From positions 105,848 through 169,847 of IMG/VR virus record IMGVR_UViG_3300020048_000021: a DNA stretch of 64,000 bases; one strand, given 5' to 3'. The translations under genes and the position numbers were made by a program. The notes below the pieces were generated by a model. That model was not told the DNA's origin. It did not search any database and was given only the letters and a program-made list of their open reading frames with translations. This DNA comes from a virus (Duplodnaviria; Heunggongvirae; Uroviricota; Caudoviricetes). Shown here in pieces: positions 17,962-61,023 of this stretch. Position 1 is the first letter of the stretch; the number at the start of each line of letters is the position of its first letter.

Positions 17962-17990
17962 TTGACAATAAATCAGTAGTACGCTATAAT
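17962..17990 (+). promoter_or_regulatory. sigma70-type promoter TTGACAATAAATC-17-TATAAT driving the third tRNA/structured-RNA cluster
   Basis: TTGACA 17962-17967, TATAAT 17985-17990. Confidence 0.65.
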
Positions 17991-18029
17991 AGAAGTTCAG
18001 TAAGTAAATCGTTCTTTAAAAATCAGACG

Positions 18030-18110
18030 CAATATTGAAGTACTCTTAAACATTGGTCTTGGTCGTTACCAGCCTAAGGCGAAAACGGCGACGAGAGTAT
18101 TTCAATATTG
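18030..18110 (+). repeat. inverted-repeat hairpin element (arms CAATATTGAAGTACT / AGTATTTCAATATTG) enclosing about 50 nt
   Basis: arms read from sequence, 14 of 15 complementary. Confidence 0.6.
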
Positions 18111-18184
18111 TGTTAATCACAATAGTAGTACGTTGACTCTATGATACTGGGAAGTATCGACCTGCTGGGAAGCACTTCTGAGAG

Positions 18185-18268
18185 TCATCATTATGAAGTA
18201 CATTTGCACTCCTTTTCTCAAAGATCCGATTGGCGCATAATCAGAGCGAGTGTACTTCATTATGATGA
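18185..18268 (+). repeat. inverted-repeat hairpin element (arms TCATCATTATGAAGTACAT / GTGTACTTCATTATGATGA) enclosing about 47 nt
   Basis: 19-nt arms with one mismatch and one G-U pair. Confidence 0.6.
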
Positions 18269-18356: not shown

Positions 18357-18451
18357 ATAATAGTACATTTTAGGCTGATGACGGCAATCGTCAGAAGGTC
18401 TGTATTTTACCATCATGATTCGAGTATCTTGCCGGAGAAACAAATTGTGAT

Positions 18452-18522
18452 GAAGCATTCGTATAGCCGGAAGTACGCCGTCAATTGAGACGGAAACGTG
18501 GGTTCGACTCCTACATGCTTGT
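18452..18522 (+). pseudogene. aberrant tRNA-like element (6-nt or 8-nt anticodon loop, 1-72 G-G mismatch, no CCA)
   Basis: acceptor GAAGCAT/ATGCTTG, D GTAT/GTAC with AGCCGGAA loop, T-arm GTGGG-TTCGACT-CCTAC; anticodon region CCGTC-AATTGA-GACGG; flanked by long-range pairing AGGCTGATGACG (18375) with CGTCAGCCT (18528). Confidence 0.45.
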
Positions 18523-18554
18523 TACGTAAACGTCAGCCTAAAGTGTATTATAAT

Positions 18555-18715: not shown

Positions 18716-18900
18716 AAGTACATAAGATAGCGACCAGTAAGGCACGTGACTGAAAAATCGCCGTAAAGTCGAGGTGGGGCCGGTAGATAACCTCGTGAAA
18801 CACCGGCCAGAAATTTAGTAACCATAGTCGGCATGTGTTCCCACCGTGCATCAACCGACTTAAAATAAAGCTAGGACGCATGCTGTCGTTAACGGTGGGG
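18716..18900 (+). ncRNA. structured non-coding region with nested and interleaved helices (candidate ncRNA)
   Basis: GAGGT(18764)/ACCTC(18790) interleaved with GGCCGGT(18772)/ACCGGCC(18810), giving pseudoknot topology; long-range CCCACCGT(18851)/ACGGTGGG(18888); no ORF. Confidence 0.35.
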
Positions 18901-18998
18901 CCATATTGAAGTACATTACATACACAATCGGGTAGACATGACAGTATTGCTTGAGATACAGCAGTGTAACATCATGGTAGTGTATTTCAATATGGTAA
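18901..18998 (+). repeat. inverted-repeat hairpin element (CCATATTGAAGTACA / TGTATTTCAATATGG) enclosing about 62 nt
   Basis: 15-bp stem with one G-U wobble. Confidence 0.6.
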
Positions 18999-19166
18999 TC
19001 ACATAATGGTGAGACAGGAGACAAGGTGAGATTAACTTCTCAGTGAGCGTATCTCTCTATCCAACGCAGATAGGTCGGTTGAGTTCGATTCTCAGCAGTG
19101 ATTACTATATTGAAACACATTTGCGGGTATTCTGAAAGGACTAGTCCCTAACAATGTGACGACCAA

Positions 19167-19346
19167 GTGTATTTCAATATGGTATCGCTACTTAGTTGCA
19201 ATGGTCACACGCCCTTGACTGAGTAGAATGTTACCATATTGAAGTACATTGATGCCTGACTGAAACGGGCATATAGAGTAACTGGCACTAAGAGAGGTTC
19301 GATTCCTCTGACTCTTATTTCAGATCAGTGTATTTCAATATGGTAA
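19167..19346 (+). repeat. three alternating copies of the 19-nt repeat (R 19167-19184, R' 19231-19249, R 19327-19346) enclosing a T-arm-like hairpin AGAGG-TTCGATT-CCTCT
   Basis: sequence read; the central R' can pair with either flanking R. Confidence 0.6.
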
Positions 19347-19641: not shown

Positions 19642-21033
19642 TTGGCTAATTTAATTTTATGGAACTGTCTCAATGTAGATCATGCATCGATTCGACCTGC
19701 TGGGCCACATCAATTGGCTCATTGGTTACAATTGAACGGTTATACCGTTAAAGTTATAGATTTTTGTCACTCAATGAGTACCGATAATCTGGTCAATATT
19801 ACATTAAAGCATATTGATCTTAATACAATCGGAATAGGAGTTAGTACTACATTTTGGAATAATACCAATAATATTGATCCTAAATCTTTATCAGTAACAA
19901 TGGAACCAGAATGGGTAATAAATGCTAGAGATAGATTAAGTCATTTAAATGTAAAATGGATATTGGGCGGAGCTAATAGTACAAATGTATTCAGTTACGA
20001 TTGGAAAATATTACATGGTCACGCAGAAGATTCATTATTACAATTTATGGATGAACATTCGTCTAAAATTAGCGTAAGACCTCAATTTGATATTAAAAAT
20101 CTAGAAAATTGTTTTTACGATGATTTAGCTATACAAAGTACAGAAGTATTACCAATAGAATTAAGTAGAGGATGTCAGTTCAAATGTAAATTTTGTCGAT
20201 ATCCATTATTGGGAAAGAAAAAGAATACATATATACGAAATTATAAACTTATAGAAACTGAGTTTGTTGAAAATTATGAACGTTATGGAATCACAAAGTA
20301 TTTTTTCTTAGATGATACCGTAAATGAAAGTATTGAAAAGATAGAGGCGTTGGCCGAAATGGCACAACGATTGCCATTCAAACTTAATTGGTTTGGATAT
20401 AATAGATTAGACTTGATAGGCACACGACCATCTACTATTGAGTTATTGAAACATAGTGGATTAAAAAGTGCTTTTTTTGGAATAGAAAGCTTTCATTCTA
20501 AGGCCAGCAAGATTGTGGGCAAAGGATGGAATGGAGTTCATGGTAAAGAATTTTTATTAGAGTTACGTCAGAAATGGGGTAATGACATAAGTTTTCATCT
20601 GGCGTTTATAGCTGGACTTACTGGCGAAACATCTGAAAATTTAGATGATACTCAACGTTGGTGTATAGATAATAATATTGCTAGTTGGAGATTTTCTGGA
20701 TTGCATATTAGCAAAAGTGAAAATCTTGTTTGGAAAAGTGAATTCGATTTAAATCACGGATTATATGGGTATAAATTTCCATACGATGATAAACCAGAAT
20801 TCTGGACTAATAGTTTATGGACTTCTCAGTCTGCGGCTAGTAAAGCAATTCAATTACTAAAAGATTCACAGAAACATATTAAGCCAGCAGTTTGGTTATT
20901 GGGCGAGTTATCGTCATTGGGATATGATTTAGATCATTTAATGAGTAAGTACAAACATGAACTTGACTGGGACGATATTAAAAATCGTAATAAGATATTT
21001 GTTGAAAAATACGTAACAACTCAATTGAAATAA
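19642..21033 (+). CDS. radical SAM enzyme with N-terminal B12-binding-like domain
   Basis: CxxxCxxC motif in GCQFKCKFCRY; N-terminal Rossmann-like segment typical of class B radical SAM; TTG start with RBS AAGGAACAAAGTAATTG. Confidence 0.65.
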   Translation: MANLILWNCLNVDHASIRPAGPHQLAHWLQLNGYTVKVIDFCHSMSTDNLVNITLKHIDLNTIGIGVSTTFWNNTNNIDPKSLSVTMEPEWVINARDRLSHLNVKWILGGANSTNVFSYDWKILHGHAEDSLLQFMDEHSSKISVRPQFDIKNLENCFYDDLAIQSTEVLPIELSRGCQFKCKFCRYPLLGKKKNTYIRNYKLIETEFVENYERYGITKYFFLDDTVNESIEKIEALAEMAQRLPFKLNWFGYNRLDLIGTRPSTIELLKHSGLKSAFFGIESFHSKASKIVGKGWNGVHGKEFLLELRQKWGNDISFHLAFIAGLTGETSENLDDTQRWCIDNNIASWRFSGLHISKSENLVWKSEFDLNHGLYGYKFPYDDKPEFWTNSLWTSQSAASKAIQLLKDSQKHIKPAVWLLGELSSLGYDLDHLMSKYKHELDWDDIKNRNKIFVEKYVTTQLK

Positions 21034-22209: not shown

Positions 22210-22295
22210 GGAGTAGAAGCATCAATGGTGATGCAGTGGACTGTAAATCCGCCGCCCTTCGGGCACGACTGGTTCGATCCCAGTATACTCCACCA
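22210..22295 (+). tRNA. tRNA-Tyr (GUA), type II
   Basis: acceptor GGAGTAG/ATACTCC (one mismatch), D GCAT/ATGC, anticodon loop CTGTAAA, variable arm GCCC-TTCG-GGGC, T-arm ACTGG-TTCGATC-CCAGT, CCA. Confidence 0.7.
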
Positions 22296-22390: not shown

Positions 22391-22485
22391 GCTAGATAGC
22401 ACTGGTGTGCGGCTGAATCTTATAAGTTCGGGAGAGTGGTCAGATGGGCTGCAACGGATAGGTTCGAATCCTATATCTAGTACCA
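22391..22485 (+). tRNA. 95-nt tRNA-like gene with Sec-like architecture, anticodon apparently UAU
   Basis: 8-bp acceptor GCTAGATA/TATCTAGT, D-stem GCAC/GTGC with 4-nt loop, GGCTGAA motif, 6-bp anticodon stem CTGAAT/GTTCGG loop CTTATAA, about 26-nt variable region, 4-bp T-stem TAGG/CCTA loop TTCGAAT, CCA. Confidence 0.45.
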
Positions 22486-22578: not shown

Positions 22579-22607
22579 TTGACATTAAATCAAGTTTGCG
22601 CTATAAT
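22579..22607 (+). promoter_or_regulatory. sigma70-type promoter TTGACATTAAATC-17-TATAAT
   Basis: TTGACA 22579-22584, TATAAT 22602-22607. Confidence 0.65.
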
Positions 22608-22748
22608 GTTTTATCAATAGGAGAAGTACAATGAAGTCTAAGATGACCGTACCCAAACGTAACCCCTTCGTTTGTTTGGTACTAAAAAAGACAGGGGCAG
22701 GTAGTCATCGTAAGTCTAACAAGGCTACGAGAAAGCAAGACAAGCAAC

Positions 22749-22822
22749 GGGGGTATAGCTCAATGGTAGAGCATCCGGCTTTTAACCGGTCGACCACGGA
22801 TCGTTACCGTGTGCCCCCACCA
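22749..22822 (+). tRNA. tRNA-Lys (UUU)
   Basis: acceptor GGGGGTA/TGCCCCC, D GCTC/GAGC, anticodon loop CTTTTAA, T-arm CACGG-ATCGTTA-CCGTG (non-canonical T-loop), CCA. Confidence 0.75.
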
Positions 22823-22825
22823 ATG

Positions 22826-22939
22826 TTATCATATTGAAATACATTCAAAGGCTATGTACAAGCCCAGTGGTGGATTCATAGCATCGTGCCAACGATGTTC
22901 ACAGGTTCGATTCCTGTAGAGTGTATTTCAATATGATAA
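22826..22939 (+). repeat. inverted-repeat hairpin element (TTATCATATTGAAATACA / TGTATTTCAATATGATAA) enclosing a 77-nt tRNA-like insert
   Basis: 18-bp stem with a U-G wobble; insert has hairpins GCTATG...CATAGC, CATCGT-GCCA-ACGATG and T-arm ACAGG-TTCGATT-CCTGT; sits exactly between tRNA-Lys and the next tRNA. Confidence 0.6.
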
Positions 22940-22940
22940 T

Positions 22941-23017
22941 GGTGATGTAGCTCAGTTGGTTAGAGCAGGTGCTTCATACGCACAAGGTCAGTGGTTCGAA
23001 TCCACTCTTCACTACCA
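22941..23017 (+). tRNA. tRNA with CAU anticodon (Met or Ile2)
   Basis: acceptor GGTGATG/CTTCACT (one mismatch), D GCTC/GAGC, anticodon loop TTCATAC, T-arm AGTGG-TTCGAAT-CCACT, CCA. Confidence 0.7.
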
Positions 23018-48018: not shown

Positions 48019-49173
48019 ATGCAATTTAATAAAACTTTAGTCGCATCAGCAGTACTCGCAATGGGCACAACTGTAGCGCAAGCAGCAGATTCGTCTGTAA
48101 CGCTTTACGGTGTTATCGACGCTGGATTTCAAGTATCTACTCAGAGTTTGGCCAATGGCTATTCAACGAGCAACGTAGGTATTGCCAGTGGTGTTCAACA
48201 AGGAAACCGATTTGGTATCAAAGGATCGGAAGATTTGGGAAATGGTCTACGTGCCACATTCACTCTTGAGTCTGGATTCAATCTTGGAAATGGCGCAAGT
48301 CAACAAGGTGGAACACTTTTCGGACGTCAATCATGGGTTGGGTTAGAAAGTGACAAATTGGGCTACGCTCGTTTGGGTAAACAATATAACTTTGCCACTG
48401 ACTACGTTGGTGCTATTGATCCATTCTTGTTAGGCTTCGGTCAAGCTAACATTGGTGCTACATTCGGTGCTGCCAACACTACACGTTACAACAACATGAT
48501 CAAATATCAATCACCAACATACTCAGGATTCACTGCTGGTGTCGGTTATTCATTTGCTAGTGGTCTAAGCACAGTCTACGCCGATAATGGTGCTGTAGCT
48601 GCTGCAAACACTTACAATTATGCTACAAACAACAACACTCGTGTACTGACAGTTGGCGGAAAATACGCAAGCGGTCCATTAACAGTGGTTGCTTCGTATG
48701 ACGTAATGTATGGTGCTGACAACGTAGTTGGTTCTAATGCCGCTAATCCAAAACAATGGATCTTCGGTGGAGCGTATGACTTCACAGTTGTAAAAGTTGC
48801 AGCCGCATATAGCCAAACCCGAAATGGTTGGATTAATGGTCAAGCTAGTGTAGACCCAACATTCAGTACTAATGCTTATGGTGGTGGTGCAGGTGGTGTA
48901 TTGTTCGACACTAACTTTGGTGCTAACAGCTACATGTTAGGTGCTACTGTTCCAGTAACAGGCGCTCAAAAAGTATTTGCATCATATCAGTATGCTACTC
49001 CAATTACAACATTGGCTAATGCTACTAACTTGAGCATCTACTCTGTTGGTTATCAATATGACTTCTCTAAGCGTACAAATGCGTATGCCTATGTTAGTCA
49101 GGCTCAGAACTATGCCTTCTTAGACGGTGCTAAAAGCACAGTTTATGGTGTAGGTTTACGTCACCAGTTTTAA
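48019..49173 (+). CDS. Gram-negative general porin (Porin_4 / Neisseria-Burkholderia type)
   Basis: signal peptide MQFNKTLVASAVLAMGTTVAQA, mature start ADSSVTLYGVIDAGF, alternating beta-strand pattern, C-terminal RHQF. Confidence 0.7.
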   Translation: MQFNKTLVASAVLAMGTTVAQAADSSVTLYGVIDAGFQVSTQSLANGYSTSNVGIASGVQQGNRFGIKGSEDLGNGLRATFTLESGFNLGNGASQQGGTLFGRQSWVGLESDKLGYARLGKQYNFATDYVGAIDPFLLGFGQANIGATFGAANTTRYNNMIKYQSPTYSGFTAGVGYSFASGLSTVYADNGAVAAANTYNYATNNNTRVLTVGGKYASGPLTVVASYDVMYGADNVVGSNAANPKQWIFGGAYDFTVVKVAAAYSQTRNGWINGQASVDPTFSTNAYGGGAGGVLFDTNFGANSYMLGATVPVTGAQKVFASYQYATPITTLANATNLSIYSVGYQYDFSKRTNAYAYVSQAQNYAFLDGAKSTVYGVGLRHQF

Positions 49174-49187
49174 TCCAAGGGATAACA

Positions 49188-49736
49188 ATGAAAGCATTAT
49201 TAGCAATCATGTTATCCTTCGTAACCCTCTGGTCGGCCGCTTTTGCGGTTGAGGGTTACGTAACGGATGGTAGTGGTCAAATTGTCAAGACAGGCTCCGG
49301 ACTGTGTCTTCACACTGGATCATTCACAGCAGCAAATGCAGTAGAAAATTGTGATTTGGTAGTTAAAGCTAAGTCAAAGCCAGTAGTATTGAGTTCAGAC
49401 GTACTGTTTGAGTTTGATAGTGCAGTCATTACCACTAAAGGTAAAGTAGCATTAGATCAATTATCAAAACAAATCAAAACAACTGATACTCTAGCTATCG
49501 TGGGTCATGCTGATCGTATTGGAACTGCTGTGTACAATCAACAACTGAGTTCACGTCGTGCTGATGCAGTTGCTATGTACTTAGATAGCAAAGTCAAAGC
49601 ATTGTATGTAACCACAGGAGTTGGCAGTACACAACCAACCGAAGATACTAAACTATGCAATGGCTTGAAGAATCAAGCAAAATTGATCAAGTGTTTATCA
49701 CCTGATCGACGGGTAGTAATTAGTTTTAGTAAATAA
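49188..49736 (+). CDS. OmpA-family protein (OmpA C-terminal peptidoglycan-binding domain)
   Basis: signal peptide; VLFEFDSAVI... AIVGHADRIGTAVYNQQLSSRRADAVAMYL matches the OmpA_C consensus. Confidence 0.65.
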   Translation: MKALLAIMLSFVTLWSAAFAVEGYVTDGSGQIVKTGSGLCLHTGSFTAANAVENCDLVVKAKSKPVVLSSDVLFEFDSAVITTKGKVALDQLSKQIKTTDTLAIVGHADRIGTAVYNQQLSSRRADAVAMYLDSKVKALYVTTGVGSTQPTEDTKLCNGLKNQAKLIKCLSPDRRVVISFSK

Positions 49737-60229: not shown

Positions 60230-60499
60230 ATGATTATTAAAGATGCTACGCCTCATCAACAAGCATTGGCTGATTTACTAAACAAAAAACTTGACGAATA
60301 TTATATTGAATATGGGTCAGAACATGTTGCTGATAAATTCTTAGAATTTATTATGACTCATGATGAGCATACTCAGAAACAAATGAAGGCGGTATCATTA
60401 ATGACAATTCAGCAATTGGCAAATAATATTGGCACTCTTGAAGTTCAGCAAGAAGCACAAGAGAGCATAACAAGAATTTTAAAGAAACATTTGCCATGA
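60230..60499 (+). CDS. hypothetical protein
   Basis: 89 aa, RBS ACGGAAAATAAAATG. Confidence 0.4.
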   Translation: MIIKDATPHQQALADLLNKKLDEYYIEYGSEHVADKFLEFIMTHDEHTQKQMKAVSLMTIQQLANNIGTLEVQQEAQESITRILKKHLP

Positions 60500-61023
60500 A
60501 CAAAGAATTGATTAAAGAACTTGCTACGCTATCTGAAATGAATCCAAAAGTAGTAAGTTTAATCTTAGCCACTTGGGCACCTTTACCAGAAGCTAATCTT
60601 ATCTTGTCTAAGTTAATGATTAACGATATTCAATCTCGTCTAGATGCTGATGATGATACATGGTCAGACATGGATACATATCATTATGGCTTTAAACAGT
60701 TGCTACTTGAATGCGCTCGTGGACGTGCGGCTGGTGTATTAGATGCACGACAAATCAAAAAGATTATTGATGATTGTTGGTCATATCCGTATGTTGGATA
60801 TGATCTAATTCAATATGTAATCAAGTCAAAACTGTTTGATGGTGAAGTCGCAGGTGATGAGTTAACCGCTATCATTAAGAAAGCAATGGAAGCTAATCCC
60901 AAGGCTGTAGCAGAGCTTAAACAGGGCAAAGACAAGGCAATTGGTGCATTGGTTGGTGCTGTTATGAAACAACAAAAGGCAAGCCCACAAGAAGTACAGG
61001 CTATTATTAGATCGTTACTATAG
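60496..61023 (+). CDS. GatB/YqeY-domain protein
   Basis: C-terminal AMEANPKAVAELKQGKDKAIGALVGAVMKQQKASPQEVQAIIRSLL matches the YqeY/GatB C-terminal consensus. Confidence 0.5.
   Translation: MNKELIKELATLSEMNPKVVSLILATWAPLPEANLILSKLMINDIQSRLDADDDTWSDMDTYHYGFKQLLLECARGRAAGVLDARQIKKIIDDCWSYPYVGYDLIQYVIKSKLFDGEVAGDELTAIIKKAMEANPKAVAELKQGKDKAIGALVGAVMKQQKASPQEVQAIIRSLL

What the first reader, a model, noticed from the sequence alone, without database searches (positions are those of the whole stretch)
22826..22939. tRNA-like element with a tetraloop in place of an anticodon loop, enclosed in an 18-bp stem
Between R' and R the insert folds as acceptor-like stem, D-like hairpin GGCT-ATGTACA-AGCC, a hairpin CATCGT-GCCA-ACGATG with a 4-nt loop, and a canonical T-arm ACAGG-TTCGATT-CCTGT. 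It cannot decode, but it keeps the elements recognised by RNase P, CCA-adding enzyme and T-loop modifiers. It could be a decoy or processing-signal RNA, or a degenerate tRNA.
Basis: seen in the sequence. Interest (0 to 1): 0.6.

Follow-up and report, generated by a model that had tools for sequence, protein, structure and literature searches.

The report
Stalked tRNA-like spacer RNA cassette
Between two tRNA genes of an uncultured T4-like phage lies a conserved, non-decoding tRNA-shaped RNA on a ~21-bp stalk; the same stalk carries many other small RNA "heads" in related phages, and heads are swapped by recombination in the stalk, a modular design I found no description of in the papers I searched.

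Summary
Window 22826-22939 folds into a 21-22 bp stem capped by four hairpins, including a canonical T arm (z = -7.2). Neither ARAGORN at default settings nor Rfam calls it a tRNA. Relaxed ARAGORN gives a class II tRNA-Ser(GGA), but homologues give other or no anticodons. The element also lacks the encoded CCA that 30 of 32 tRNAs here carry, so it is tRNA-like but does not decode.

Ten distinct homologues in related uncultured phages keep five helices with compensatory changes. One double change suggests a tRNA-elbow contact.

The main new point is the stem. Its arms are a repeat family with at least 7 copies in the window and about 86 distinct cassettes in related contigs, enclosing unrelated heads. 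The arms pair better on the tRNA strand (58 vs 2), so they are selected as RNA. They are tRNA trailer paired with tRNA leader: in 11 cases the 5' arm begins with the upstream tRNA's own CCA. Heads are exchanged by recombination within the arms; the window's head is 94% L025-like while its flanks are L043-like.

Best reading: a co-transcribed, excised, non-decoding tRNA-mimic spacer RNA. The closest analogue is T4 RNA C. Its function is not established.

The parts
22826..22846 (+). 5' strand of the stalk (P1). It is the trailer-type arm UUAUCAUAUUGAAAUACA plus UUC.
   Evidence: Repeat family.
22850..22864 (+). It is probably an extra helix, since its loop has no GG.
   Evidence: One search shows 2 pairs with double changes.
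22867..22879 (+). P3 mini-hairpin GUG-GUGGAUU-CAU with a GG-containing loop. It is a candidate D-arm analogue; ARAGORN reads it as an anticodon arm with GGA.
   Evidence: One search counts the putative loop-loop pair with the T loop as G-C x9, U-A x1.
22881..22898 (+). P4 hairpin GCAUCGU-GCCA-ACGAUGU. Its length and sequence vary among homologues.
   Evidence: One search shows 5 of 7 pairs with double changes.
22901..22917 (+). P5, a canonical T arm: ACAGG-UUCGAUU-CCUGU.
   Evidence: 100% paired, 2 pairs with double changes.
22919..22939 (+). 3' strand of the stalk (leader-type arm). It ends one base before tRNA-Met +1 (22941).
22749..22822 (+). Upstream tRNA-Lys(UUU) with encoded CCA. Its 3' maturation would define the 5' end of the element.
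22941..23017 (+). Downstream tRNA-Met(CAU). RNase P cleavage at 22940|22941 would define the 3' end of the element (inferred).
22579..22607 (+). Perfect-consensus sigma-70 promoter (TTGACA-17-TATAAT) of the transcription unit that carries the element.
18027..18113 (+). Family member E1: same stalk, unrelated 47-nt head.
   Evidence: 98% identical in L038.
18185..18268 (+). Family member E2: a stalk variant with compensatory changes. It ends 14 nt before tRNA-Glu.
18357..18554 (+). Family member E3, which fills the gap between two tRNA-Glu genes. Its head contains a tRNA-like fold (18452-18522) with a 6-nt anticodon loop and no CCA.
18901..18998 (+). Family member E4.
19102..19185 (+). Family member E5.
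   Evidence: 94% identical in L043.
19231..19346 (+). Family member E6. Its head has the T arm AGAGG-UUCGAUU-CCUCU and is a weak hit to the E7 model.
   Evidence: 21.1 bits.

Best explanation
The element is a conserved, non-decoding, tRNA-shaped small RNA (the 'head', helices P2-P5) carried on a ~21-bp double-stranded stalk. It is one member of a large family of 'stalked cassettes' that occupy spacers in the tRNA-rich early transcription units of a clade of uncultured T4-like phages. SHOWN: it lies on the tRNA strand, downstream of a perfect sigma-70 promoter. The five helices are conserved with compensatory changes. The stalk is selected at the RNA level. The stalk is made of tRNA-trailer sequence (in many cassettes starting with the upstream tRNA's CCA) paired with the leader of the next tRNA. 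Heads are unrelated between cassettes and are exchanged by recombination within the arms. INFERRED: the unit is transcribed as ORF - tRNA-Lys - E7 - tRNA-Met - tRNA-Gln. RNase P cutting at tRNA-Met +1 and 3' maturation of tRNA-Lys release a ~118-nt hairpin RNA. The two-turn stalk may in addition be an RNase III substrate, as in rRNA processing stalks. The stalk hides the acceptor end, which has no CCA, so the RNA cannot be charged, and it should protect the RNA from exonucleases. The head keeps the T arm and a likely T-loop/P3-loop elbow. It therefore most likely acts as a stable tRNA mimic that engages proteins which read tRNA shape and not the anticodon (RNase P, T-loop modifiers or another tRNA-binding factor). 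The target and the benefit to the phage are unknown.
For: Position and signals: the element lies between tRNA-Lys and tRNA-Met on the + strand. There is a 12/12 promoter at 22579-22607, and neither a promoter nor a terminator inside the arms. Structure: z = -7.2. RNAalifold on 8 homologues finds 40 pairs, 9 of them with double changes. On 10 sequences, 94% of cells are paired and 9 pairs show double changes, reached by 0 of 500 shuffles, while slid controls give 30-57%. The covariance model finds 87-101 bits for E7-type copies, 36-50 bits for a sister type, 21 bits for the window's E6 and 16-21 bits for true tRNAs. Not a decoder: default ARAGORN and Rfam are negative, relaxed calls disagree among homologues, and there is no CCA against 30 of 32 tRNAs with one. 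Elbow: the P3-loop G and T-loop C56 change together to U and A in L001 and L007, which are contigs from two different samples. RNA-level stalk: among cassettes with a strand asymmetry, 58 pair better on the tRNA strand and 2 on the other. Stalk lengths peak at 19-20 bp, and position 10 covaries between U-A (152) and C-G (35). Trailer/leader nature: 62 of 148 5' arms read CCAUAUUG; in 11 of them that CCA is a called tRNA's 3' end; 24 of 147 3' arms end <=15 nt before a tRNA (example L158). Modularity: about 70-86 distinct heads share the same arms. Homology between contigs is often limited to the cassette. In the mosaic test, flanks are 97.5%/87% identical to L043 and ~54% to L025, while the head is 75.6% identical to L043 and 93.6% to L025.
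Against: There is no expression, end-mapping or structure-probing data, so every processing step is inferred from what is generally known about RNase P and RNase III. Only about 10 distinct E7-type sequences exist in public data. Most arm pairs never vary within the E7 set, so arm conservation could reflect gene conversion among the many copies and not recognition by a factor. The elbow covariation is a single evolutionary event. The head evolves faster than the flanking tRNAs (75.6% against 97.5% identity to L043). No partner protein was found: no RNase III, Ro60 or CCA-adding enzyme among about 45 ORFs tested. The assignment of P2/P3/P4 to D, anticodon and variable arms is ambiguous. An RNA without an anticodon arm is a poor decoy for the known anticodon-arm nucleases (PMC13056530, PMC10264068).
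Confidence: 0.55

Rival explanations
1. It is a decaying tRNA pseudogene: a former class II tRNA such as tRNA-Ser whose anticodon arm has degenerated, with no function of its own. It survives only because it sits in a spacer between two needed tRNAs.
For: ARAGORN at -ps95 draws a class II cloverleaf, Ser(GGA), at 22840-22926. The five-way junction has the same topology as a class II tRNA. The head evolves faster than the neighbouring tRNAs. The window holds other defective tRNA-like folds.
Against: The structure is maintained by compensatory changes in P2, P4 and P5 across about 10 homologues in different genomic contexts. The element is transferred as a unit between phages. A sister type keeps the same skeleton. 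The variants with 5-nt and 7-nt loops are both conserved.
Confidence: 0.15
2. The arms are primarily a DNA-level device: recombination modules like PeSLs, or ends of a non-autonomous mobile element. In this view the head is passenger sequence, and the RNA fold is a by-product of the inverted repeat.
For: Cassette-limited homology and indels that begin and end in arms. Head replacement inside the arms. Cassettes swapped between close relatives. The arm sequence is more conserved than pairing alone requires. PeSL precedent in T4-type phages (PMC4122927, PMC2839356).
Against: The strand asymmetry of G.U against C.A follows the tRNA strand 58 to 2, which a DNA-only role does not predict. There are no target-site duplications beyond chance. 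There is no promoter or terminator in the arms. The heads themselves show RNA covariation. The arms coincide with tRNA 3' and 5' ends. The recombination role is real, but it is compatible with the RNA role and does not replace it.
Confidence: 0.17
3. In this particular phage the element is a working tRNA-Ser(GGA). After RNase P and 3' trimming plus CCA addition it is serylated, since SerRS reads the long variable arm and not the anticodon, and it decodes UCC/UCU.
For: In the window and in L025 the loop is 7 nt, with U33 and GGA in the window copy. A long variable-arm-like hairpin and a canonical T arm are present. The window has no other tRNA reading UCN.
Against: It falls below default ARAGORN and below Rfam even at E<=10. 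It has an A.A mismatch in the anticodon stem, U37, no GG in the D loop, a bulged base between the T stem and acceptor stem, discriminator U, and no CCA although 30 of 32 tRNAs here encode it. L025, with the same loop length, is read as His(GUG) in a different fold. Eight of 10 distinct homologues have shorter loops. The acceptor end is locked in a 21-bp duplex.
Confidence: 0.04
4. It is a Y RNA-like (YrlA-type) RNA: a long stem binds a Ro60 ring protein and the tRNA-like module recruits an effector.
For: The overall concept, a long terminal stem plus a tRNA-like module, matches. There is a weak Rfam YrlA hit at 23.5 bits, E 0.023. YrlA-like RNAs occur in some phages (PMC4201824).
Against: The hit is far below the gathering score (69) and is mis-registered, spanning 22872-23001 and borrowing the D arm of tRNA-Met. 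No Ro60/TROVE gene was found among the ORFs tested. No GNCGAAN0-1G motif is present. In E7 the long stem continues the acceptor stem, whereas the YrlA consensus has the T arm before the D arm.
Confidence: 0.02

Closest known systems
Phage T4 RNA C (species 1 RNA, rnaC), a stable small RNA of the T4 tRNA cluster
   Same: It is encoded in the tRNA cluster of a T4-type phage, co-oriented with the tRNAs. Its 5' and 3' ends pair in an acceptor-like stem. It has a canonical T arm (CCGGG-UUCGAAU-CCCGG) preceded by non-tRNA hairpins, and no anticodon. Its function is still unknown (PMC3014915). It is the best T4 hit to the E7 model, ahead of all eight T4 tRNAs.
   Different: It is not homologous: 16.7 bits, aligned only through the T arm. 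It has no 20-bp conserved stalk, and there is no family of alternative heads. rnaD has no T arm.
YrlA / bacterial Y RNA-like tRNA mimics (Rfam RF02553; PMC4201824)
   Same: It is a non-decoding RNA of about 100 nt with a long terminal stem and a tRNA-like module carrying T-arm and D-arm features. YrlA is a substrate of tRNA-recognising enzymes.
   Different: Rfam score is 23.5 against a gathering score of 69, and the hit is mis-registered. There is no adjacent Ro60 gene and no Ro-binding motif. The order of the arms relative to the terminal stem differs.
RNase III processing stalks (rRNA operon leader-trailer stems; inter-genic RNase III sites of phage T7). This comparison rests on my own knowledge, not on a tool result.
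   Same: A stem of about two helical turns forms between sequences flanking an embedded RNA in a polycistronic transcript. The stem sequence recurs at several sites in one genome.
   Different: Cleavage was not tested here. The stalk is built from tRNA trailer and leader, in some cassettes including the CCA itself, and carries small variable heads, not rRNA or mRNA.
PeSL promoter-terminator cassettes of T4-type phages (PMC2839356, PMC4122927)
   Same: They are short conserved repeats concentrated in plastic regions, sit at indel and replacement boundaries, and mediate modular shuffling.
   Different: PeSLs are direct-repeat composites of a short terminator hairpin plus a sigma-70 promoter that flank ORFs. 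The arms here contain neither signal, are inverted, enclose non-coding heads, and show RNA-strand-specific pairing.
Plant mitochondrial t-elements (tRNA-like structures used as RNase P/Z processing signals; PMC1920247)
   Same: They are a non-decoding tRNA-like fold embedded in a longer transcript, at a position where transcript ends are made.
   Different: t-elements punctuate mRNAs. E7 mostly lies between genuine tRNAs that already provide such signals, although in L023 and L012 it sits just upstream of an ORF start.

Membership tests
tRNA (Rfam RF00005 / ARAGORN) | The cloverleaf scores above the detection thresholds. | tested here: not met
   No RF00005 hit at gathering or at E<=10. ARAGORN default is negative; a call appears only at -ps95.
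tRNA (Rfam RF00005 / ARAGORN) | A 7-nt anticodon loop with U33 and a purine at 37, and an anticodon conserved among orthologues. | tested here: not met
   The window copy has loop GUGGAUU with U37. Eight of 10 distinct homologues have a shorter loop at that helix. Relaxed calls give Ser, His, nothing, Gly, Leu or Asn.
tRNA (Rfam RF00005 / ARAGORN) | A canonical T arm (5-bp stem, loop UUCRANY). | tested here: met
   ACAGG-UUCGAUU-CCUGU. It is 100% paired in 10 sequences, with 2 covarying pairs.
tRNA (Rfam RF00005 / ARAGORN) | A D loop with G18G19 contacting the T loop. | tested here: inconclusive
   The 4-bp hairpin P2 has no GG in its loop. The 3-bp hairpin P3 has one, and its G covaries once with T-loop C56.
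tRNA (Rfam RF00005 / ARAGORN) | A free 3' end with CCA, which is encoded in this genome's tRNAs. | tested here: not met
   30 of 32 tRNAs encode CCA. The E7 acceptor strand is followed by UUUC and is paired for 14 more bp.
tRNA (Rfam RF00005 / ARAGORN) | Aminoacylation and decoding. | not testable with these tools
   Needs charging assays or tRNA-seq.
YrlA / Y RNA-like | Match to RF02553 at the gathering score. | tested here: not met
   23.5 bits against 69. The alignment runs into tRNA-Met.
YrlA / Y RNA-like | Encoded next to a Ro60 (TROVE) gene. | tested here: not met
   No TROVE hit in about 45 ORFs of the window. The rest of the phage genome was not available.
YrlA / Y RNA-like | A Ro60-binding stem with the GNCGAAN0-1G motif (PMC4201824). 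| tested here: not met
   The motif is absent from 22826-22939.
PeSL cassettes | A composite of a sigma-70-like promoter and a terminator stem-loop. | tested here: not met
   No promoter or terminator prediction falls within the arms. The promoters lie at 17962, 21643 and 22579, outside the cassettes.
PeSL cassettes | Located at the boundaries of indels or replacements between related phages. | tested here: met
MITE / transposon with terminal inverted repeats | Target-site duplications flanking the inverted repeats. | tested here: not met
   The TSD length distribution equals the chance expectation over 86 cassettes.
MITE / transposon with terminal inverted repeats | Copies share the internal sequence. 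| tested here: not met
   About 70-86 unrelated heads lie between the same arms.
T4 RNA C (rnaC) | Sequence and structure homology. | tested here: not met
   16.7 bits to model R1, aligned through the T arm only.
RNase III processing stalk | About 20 bp or more of uninterrupted dsRNA formed by the flanks of an embedded RNA. | tested here: met
   21-22 bp in E7. The family mode is 19-20 bp.
RNase III processing stalk | Cleavage by RNase III in vivo or in vitro. | not testable with these tools
   Needs rnc mutants or purified enzyme.

The most novel reading that the evidence does not exclude
These phages carry a previously undescribed modular RNA system. A conserved ~20-bp stalk is built from the tRNA trailer (starting at the CCA) and the next tRNA's leader. 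It is read by one processing or binding factor, and it presents interchangeable structured heads. Several of these heads are anticodon-less tRNA mimics that titrate or redirect host tRNA-recognising proteins, either processing or modification enzymes or shape-reading defence factors. The same stalk sequence doubles as the recombination site that lets phages trade heads.
Probability: 0.25. Interest if true: 0.8.

Novelty: new variant of a known kind. Interest (0 to 1): 0.6.

Why it matters
Non-decoding tRNA-like RNAs in phage tRNA clusters have been known since T4 RNA C, and their role is still unexplained (PMC3014915). This family offers something T4 does not. It has many paralogous and orthologous copies with covariation, a defined shared stalk, and natural head-swap variants, so structure-function hypotheses become testable. 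It also bears on current work on phage tRNAs as counter-defence tools (PMC10264068, PMC11464382, PMC11555353). It shows that some tRNA-cluster 'spacers' are selected RNAs, and that tRNA leader and trailer sequences can act as portable recombination junctions. Finally, it warns annotators that relaxed tRNA finders will mislabel such heads as tRNA-Ser, tRNA-His and so on.

Tried and rejected
- Close phage relatives: megablast and blastn against 50,697 phage records gave only tRNA-level matches. tblastn of the 847-aa ORF found nothing, and RIIA matched at under 60% identity, so no annotated relative exists.
- Conserved-interior search (GAGTGRTGGACATAGC) in viral contigs: mostly chance hits in coding DNA, with one new member, L130.
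- The metagenome scan re-found essentially the same contigs.
- The genome scan found only a phage-like contig binned into an Aquiluna MAG.
- Empty-site test for mobility: the region upstream of the phosphoesterase gene is too variable. Only L043 shares the layout, so no clean presence/absence allele was found.
- YrlA, tmRNA and all other Rfam families were rejected for E7 and for cassette heads in 8 relatives.
- Anticodon-nuclease decoy idea: the bacterial Schlafen, like PARIS, cuts the anticodon arm (PMC13056530), which gives no support for an RNA that lacks that arm.
- Pairing of the P3 loop UGGUGG with a tRNA 3' CCACCA end was considered and dropped. The motif varies (AUGGA, GUGUA), and its change covaries with the element's own T loop instead.
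- I first treated the stalk G.U as invariant. Across all cassettes it is G.U 109, A-U 94, G-C 19, so it is only the plurality state.
- ArfA-likeness of the small ORF: no Pfam hit even at E<=10.

Full report

Yes. The window is a tRNA-rich stretch of a phage: ARAGORN finds 32 tRNAs, all on the + strand. The finding fills the whole gap between tRNA-Lys(UUU) (22749-22822) and tRNA-Met(CAU) (22941-23017).

The 18-nt arms TTATCATATTGAAATACA (22826-22843 and 22922-22939) are perfectly complementary. Pairing continues through UUC/GAG to 21 bp, or 22 bp with G22825.U22940.

The fold (-47.9 kcal/mol) lies 7.2 sd below dinucleotide shuffles, and 0 of 200 shuffles fold as well. These contain a fifth short helix, GUG-GUGGAUU-CAU (22867-79).

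**2. Is it a tRNA that was missed by hand?**

Default ARAGORN and Rfam at gathering and at E<=10 do not call it. The only Rfam hit is YrlA at 23.5 bits against a gathering score of 69. That hit is mis-registered (22872-23001) and borrows the D arm of tRNA-Met.

With ARAGORN relaxed to 95% of threshold, 22840-22926 is drawn as a class II tRNA-Ser(GGA), in which the 'tetraloop hairpin' is a long variable arm. That fold is poor:
- an A.A mismatch in the anticodon stem
- U37
- no GG in the D loop
- a bulged A between the T stem and acceptor stem
- discriminator U

It is also not reproduced in homologues. L025 is read as His(GUG) in another fold, six others give nothing at 95%, and lower thresholds give unrelated anticodons.

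30 of the 32 tRNAs in the window encode their CCA. E7 does not; its acceptor strand continues UUUC and stays paired. The element is therefore tRNA-like but not a decoder.

**3. Who carries it?**

The window belongs to a T4-like myovirus. It encodes RIIA, a baseplate wedge protein, Rnl1-like and Rnl2-like RNA ligases, NAMPT and PRPP synthetase. No close annotated relative exists. Many uncultured viral contigs are related: the adjacent phosphoesterase is 70-79% identical in 311 loci.

Relatives L025 and L001 encode a two-piece tmRNA of the betaproteobacterial type, which suggests a betaproteobacterial host.

**4. Conservation of the element**

Full-length homologues occur in L025 (94%), L043, L023, L010, L001/L007, L012, L130, L003 and L115. 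That makes about 10 distinct sequences. The metagenome and genome scans added essentially nothing new.

RNAalifold recovers the stalk P1 and four hairpins P2-P5, with 9 pairs carrying double changes. On a 10-sequence alignment with my explicit structure:
- 94% of cells pair.
- 9 pairs show double changes, which 0 of 500 column shuffles reach.
- Slid controls fall to 30-57%.
- P4 is the most variable helix (5 of 7 pairs covary, loop 4-11 nt).
- The T arm is 100% paired.

A covariance model (R1) scores E7-type copies at 87-101 bits. A sister type with the same skeleton (L001 7605-7702, L030, L032, L043 572-674, L156) scores 36-50 bits. The window's E6 scores 21 bits, and genuine tRNAs score 16-21 bits.

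**5. Which helix is which?**

Across both types, the short helix P3 covaries: GUG/CAU, UAU/AUA, UGU/ACA, UAUG/CAUA, UGUG/CACA, UAUA/UAUA. Its loop nearly always contains GG.

In L001 and L007, which are contigs from two different samples, the second loop G is U and the otherwise invariant T-loop C56 is A. The pair counts as G-C x9 and U-A x1. This looks like the G19:C56 elbow pair of tRNA.

It suggests that P3 is the D-arm analogue, P2 is an extra hairpin, and P4 occupies the anticodon-arm position. This rests on one event, and the class II reading (P2 = D, P3 = anticodon, P4 = variable) is not excluded.

**6. The stalk is a family**

The arm recurs in the window at 18027/18094, 18185/18243, 18357/18533, 18901/18977, 19102/19168 and 19231/19329. 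These arms enclose unrelated heads:
- E3 encloses a second defective tRNA-like fold, with a 6-nt anticodon loop and no CCA.
- E6 has a T arm.
- The arms alternate in orientation, so 'between' units such as 18981-19119 can also fold. That unit carries a T arm and is 93% conserved in L043.

Across the fetched contigs I found about 70-86 distinct heads of 30-140 nt between the same arms.

**7. RNA or DNA?**

- Where the two strands differ in pairing quality (G.U against C.A), the better strand is the tRNA-gene strand in 58 cassettes and the opposite strand in 2.
- Stalk length peaks at 19-20 bp.
- Some stalk positions covary, for example U-A 152 / C-G 35 at position 10. The G.U at position 9 is the plurality state (109 against A-U 94), not an invariant.
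- There are no target-site duplications beyond chance.
- The arms hold no promoter or terminator. Perfect-consensus promoters sit at 17962, 21643 and 22579, and a terminator at 19571-91 closes the 18-19.3 kb array.

The stalk is therefore selected as RNA. It is neither a PeSL (PMC4122927) nor a MITE.

**8. What the arms are**

In 62 of 148 distinct 5' arms the core is preceded by CC, giving CCAUAUUGAAGUACA. In 11 of these, that CCA is the 3' end of a called tRNA. 24 of 147 3' arms end within 15 nt of the next tRNA, and 5 of them end 1 nt before it. L158 gives a clear example.

The stalk is thus the trailer of one tRNA paired with the leader of the next, and the cassette is the inter-tRNA spacer. 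In the window copy the 5' arm starts 4 nt after the CCA of tRNA-Lys, and the 3' arm ends at position -1 of tRNA-Met.

**9. Recombination**

Between many contig pairs, homology is confined to the cassette. Indels between L025, L001, L007 and L130 start and stop in arms.

The window itself is a mosaic:

| Segment | Identity to L043 | Identity to L025 |
|---|---|---|
| 200 nt upstream | 97.5% | ~54% |
| 200 nt downstream | 87% | ~54% |
| Head | 75.6% | 93.6% |

The outer arm bases follow L043. The head was therefore replaced by recombination inside the arms. E4 and E6 have no counterpart in L043, which carries other cassettes at those places. The arms behave as portable junctions, functionally like PeSLs but with a different anatomy.

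**10. How it most likely works**

Shown:
- co-orientation with the tRNAs and a promoter upstream
- a conserved five-helix fold
- an RNA-level stalk
- the trailer/leader identity of the arms
- modular exchange of heads

Inferred from what is generally known about RNase P and tRNA 3' maturation: the precursor ORF - tRNA-Lys - E7 - tRNA-Met - tRNA-Gln is cut at tRNA-Met +1 and after the CCA of tRNA-Lys, releasing a ~118-nt hairpin. A two-turn duplex of this kind is also the classical RNase III substrate, as in rRNA stalks and T7 inter-genic sites (my own knowledge, not tested here).

The stalk buries an acceptor end that has no CCA, so the RNA should be uncharged and resistant to exonucleases. 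The head keeps the parts of a tRNA that shape-reading proteins use: the T arm, probably the elbow, and an acceptor-T coaxial stack. I therefore favour a stable tRNA mimic. The target is unknown.

A purely structural 'insulator or processing' role for the stalk would not explain why the heads are conserved with covariation. No partner protein (RNase III, Ro60, CCA-adding enzyme) is encoded in the ORFs I tested.

**11. Comparison with known systems**

- T4 RNA C is the closest analogue. It lies in the tRNA cluster, has an acceptor-like closure and a canonical T arm preceded by foreign hairpins, and its role is unknown (PMC3014915). It is the top T4 hit to model R1, but only at 16.7 bits through the T arm, so it is an analogue and not a homologue.
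- YrlA shares the concept of a long stem plus a tRNA-like module (PMC4201824). E7 fails every YrlA membership feature I could test.
- Plant t-elements (PMC1920247) and rRNA or T7 RNase III stalks are mechanistic analogies.
- I found no paper describing stem-enclosed tRNA-like cassettes.

**12. Verdict**

The finding is real and more interesting than a lone odd hairpin, but its function is not established. I rate it a new variant of a known kind (non-decoding tRNA-like RNAs of phage tRNA clusters). There is a 0.25 chance that it represents a genuinely new modular RNA system.

Noticed in passing
window 22631-22837 (+), promoter 22579-22607: A 68-codon ORF behind a perfect sigma-70 promoter reads straight into tRNA-Lys. 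Codon 39 ends at 22748 and the tRNA starts at 22749, so RNase P processing would leave a non-stop mRNA. By eye the peptide (…KKTGAGSHRKSNK…) resembles ArfA, but no Pfam hit appears even at E<=10.
   Followed up: partly
window 22391-22485 (+); also L025 2706-2801, L001 4811-4905, L043 1371-1465: A 95-nt tRNA with a long variable arm, encoded CCA and anticodon UAU, i.e. a class II body with an Ile-type anticodon. It is conserved in relatives. Rfam scores the window copy only as tRNA-Sec-like (27.5 bits) but scores the L001 copy as tRNA at 58.5 bits.
   Followed up: partly
window 22210-22292 (+): A class II tRNA-Tyr(GUA) with CCA is found by Rfam (34.5 bits) and by relaxed ARAGORN but missed by default ARAGORN.
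   Followed up: yes
window 18452-18522 (+), inside cassette E3 (18357-18554): A second stem-enclosed tRNA-like fold, with a 6-nt anticodon loop (ARAGORN 'tRNA-???') and no CCA. It sits between two tRNA-Glu genes.
   Followed up: partly
window 18716-18823 (+): 108 nt directly after tRNA-His are 98-99% identical in L026 and L010, far above the surrounding identity. They have no significant fold (z = +0.4) and no Rfam match. The purpose is unknown.
   Followed up: partly
window 18981-19119 (+): A 'between-arm' unit: a 3'-type arm, then a head with the T arm UUGAG-UUCGAUU-CUCAG, then a 5'-type arm. It folds as an alternative hairpin, is 93% conserved in L043, and relaxed ARAGORN reads it as tRNA-Arg(ACG). 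The arrays can therefore adopt competing folds.
   Followed up: partly
L025 8258-8602 (-), L001 8476-8822 (-); L007 189-441 (-): Related phages encode a permuted two-piece tmRNA of the betaproteobacterial type (RF01850 92.8 bits, RF04321 111 bits). One carries a near-threshold group I intron match (49.3 against 50 bits).
   Followed up: no
window 48019-49736, 60496-61023, 19642-21033: The phage encodes a Gram-negative porin (Porin_4, E 4e-44) followed by an OmpA-like protein, and a GatB/YqeY-domain protein. A 463-aa radical SAM protein lies immediately downstream of the cassette array.
   Followed up: no
L158 (CAZKLA010000004.1, MAG 'uncultured Aquiluna sp.'): The 48-kb contig carries 16 tRNAs in 4.5 kb plus a stalked cassette, so it looks like a phage contig mis-binned into an actinobacterial MAG.
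   Followed up: partly
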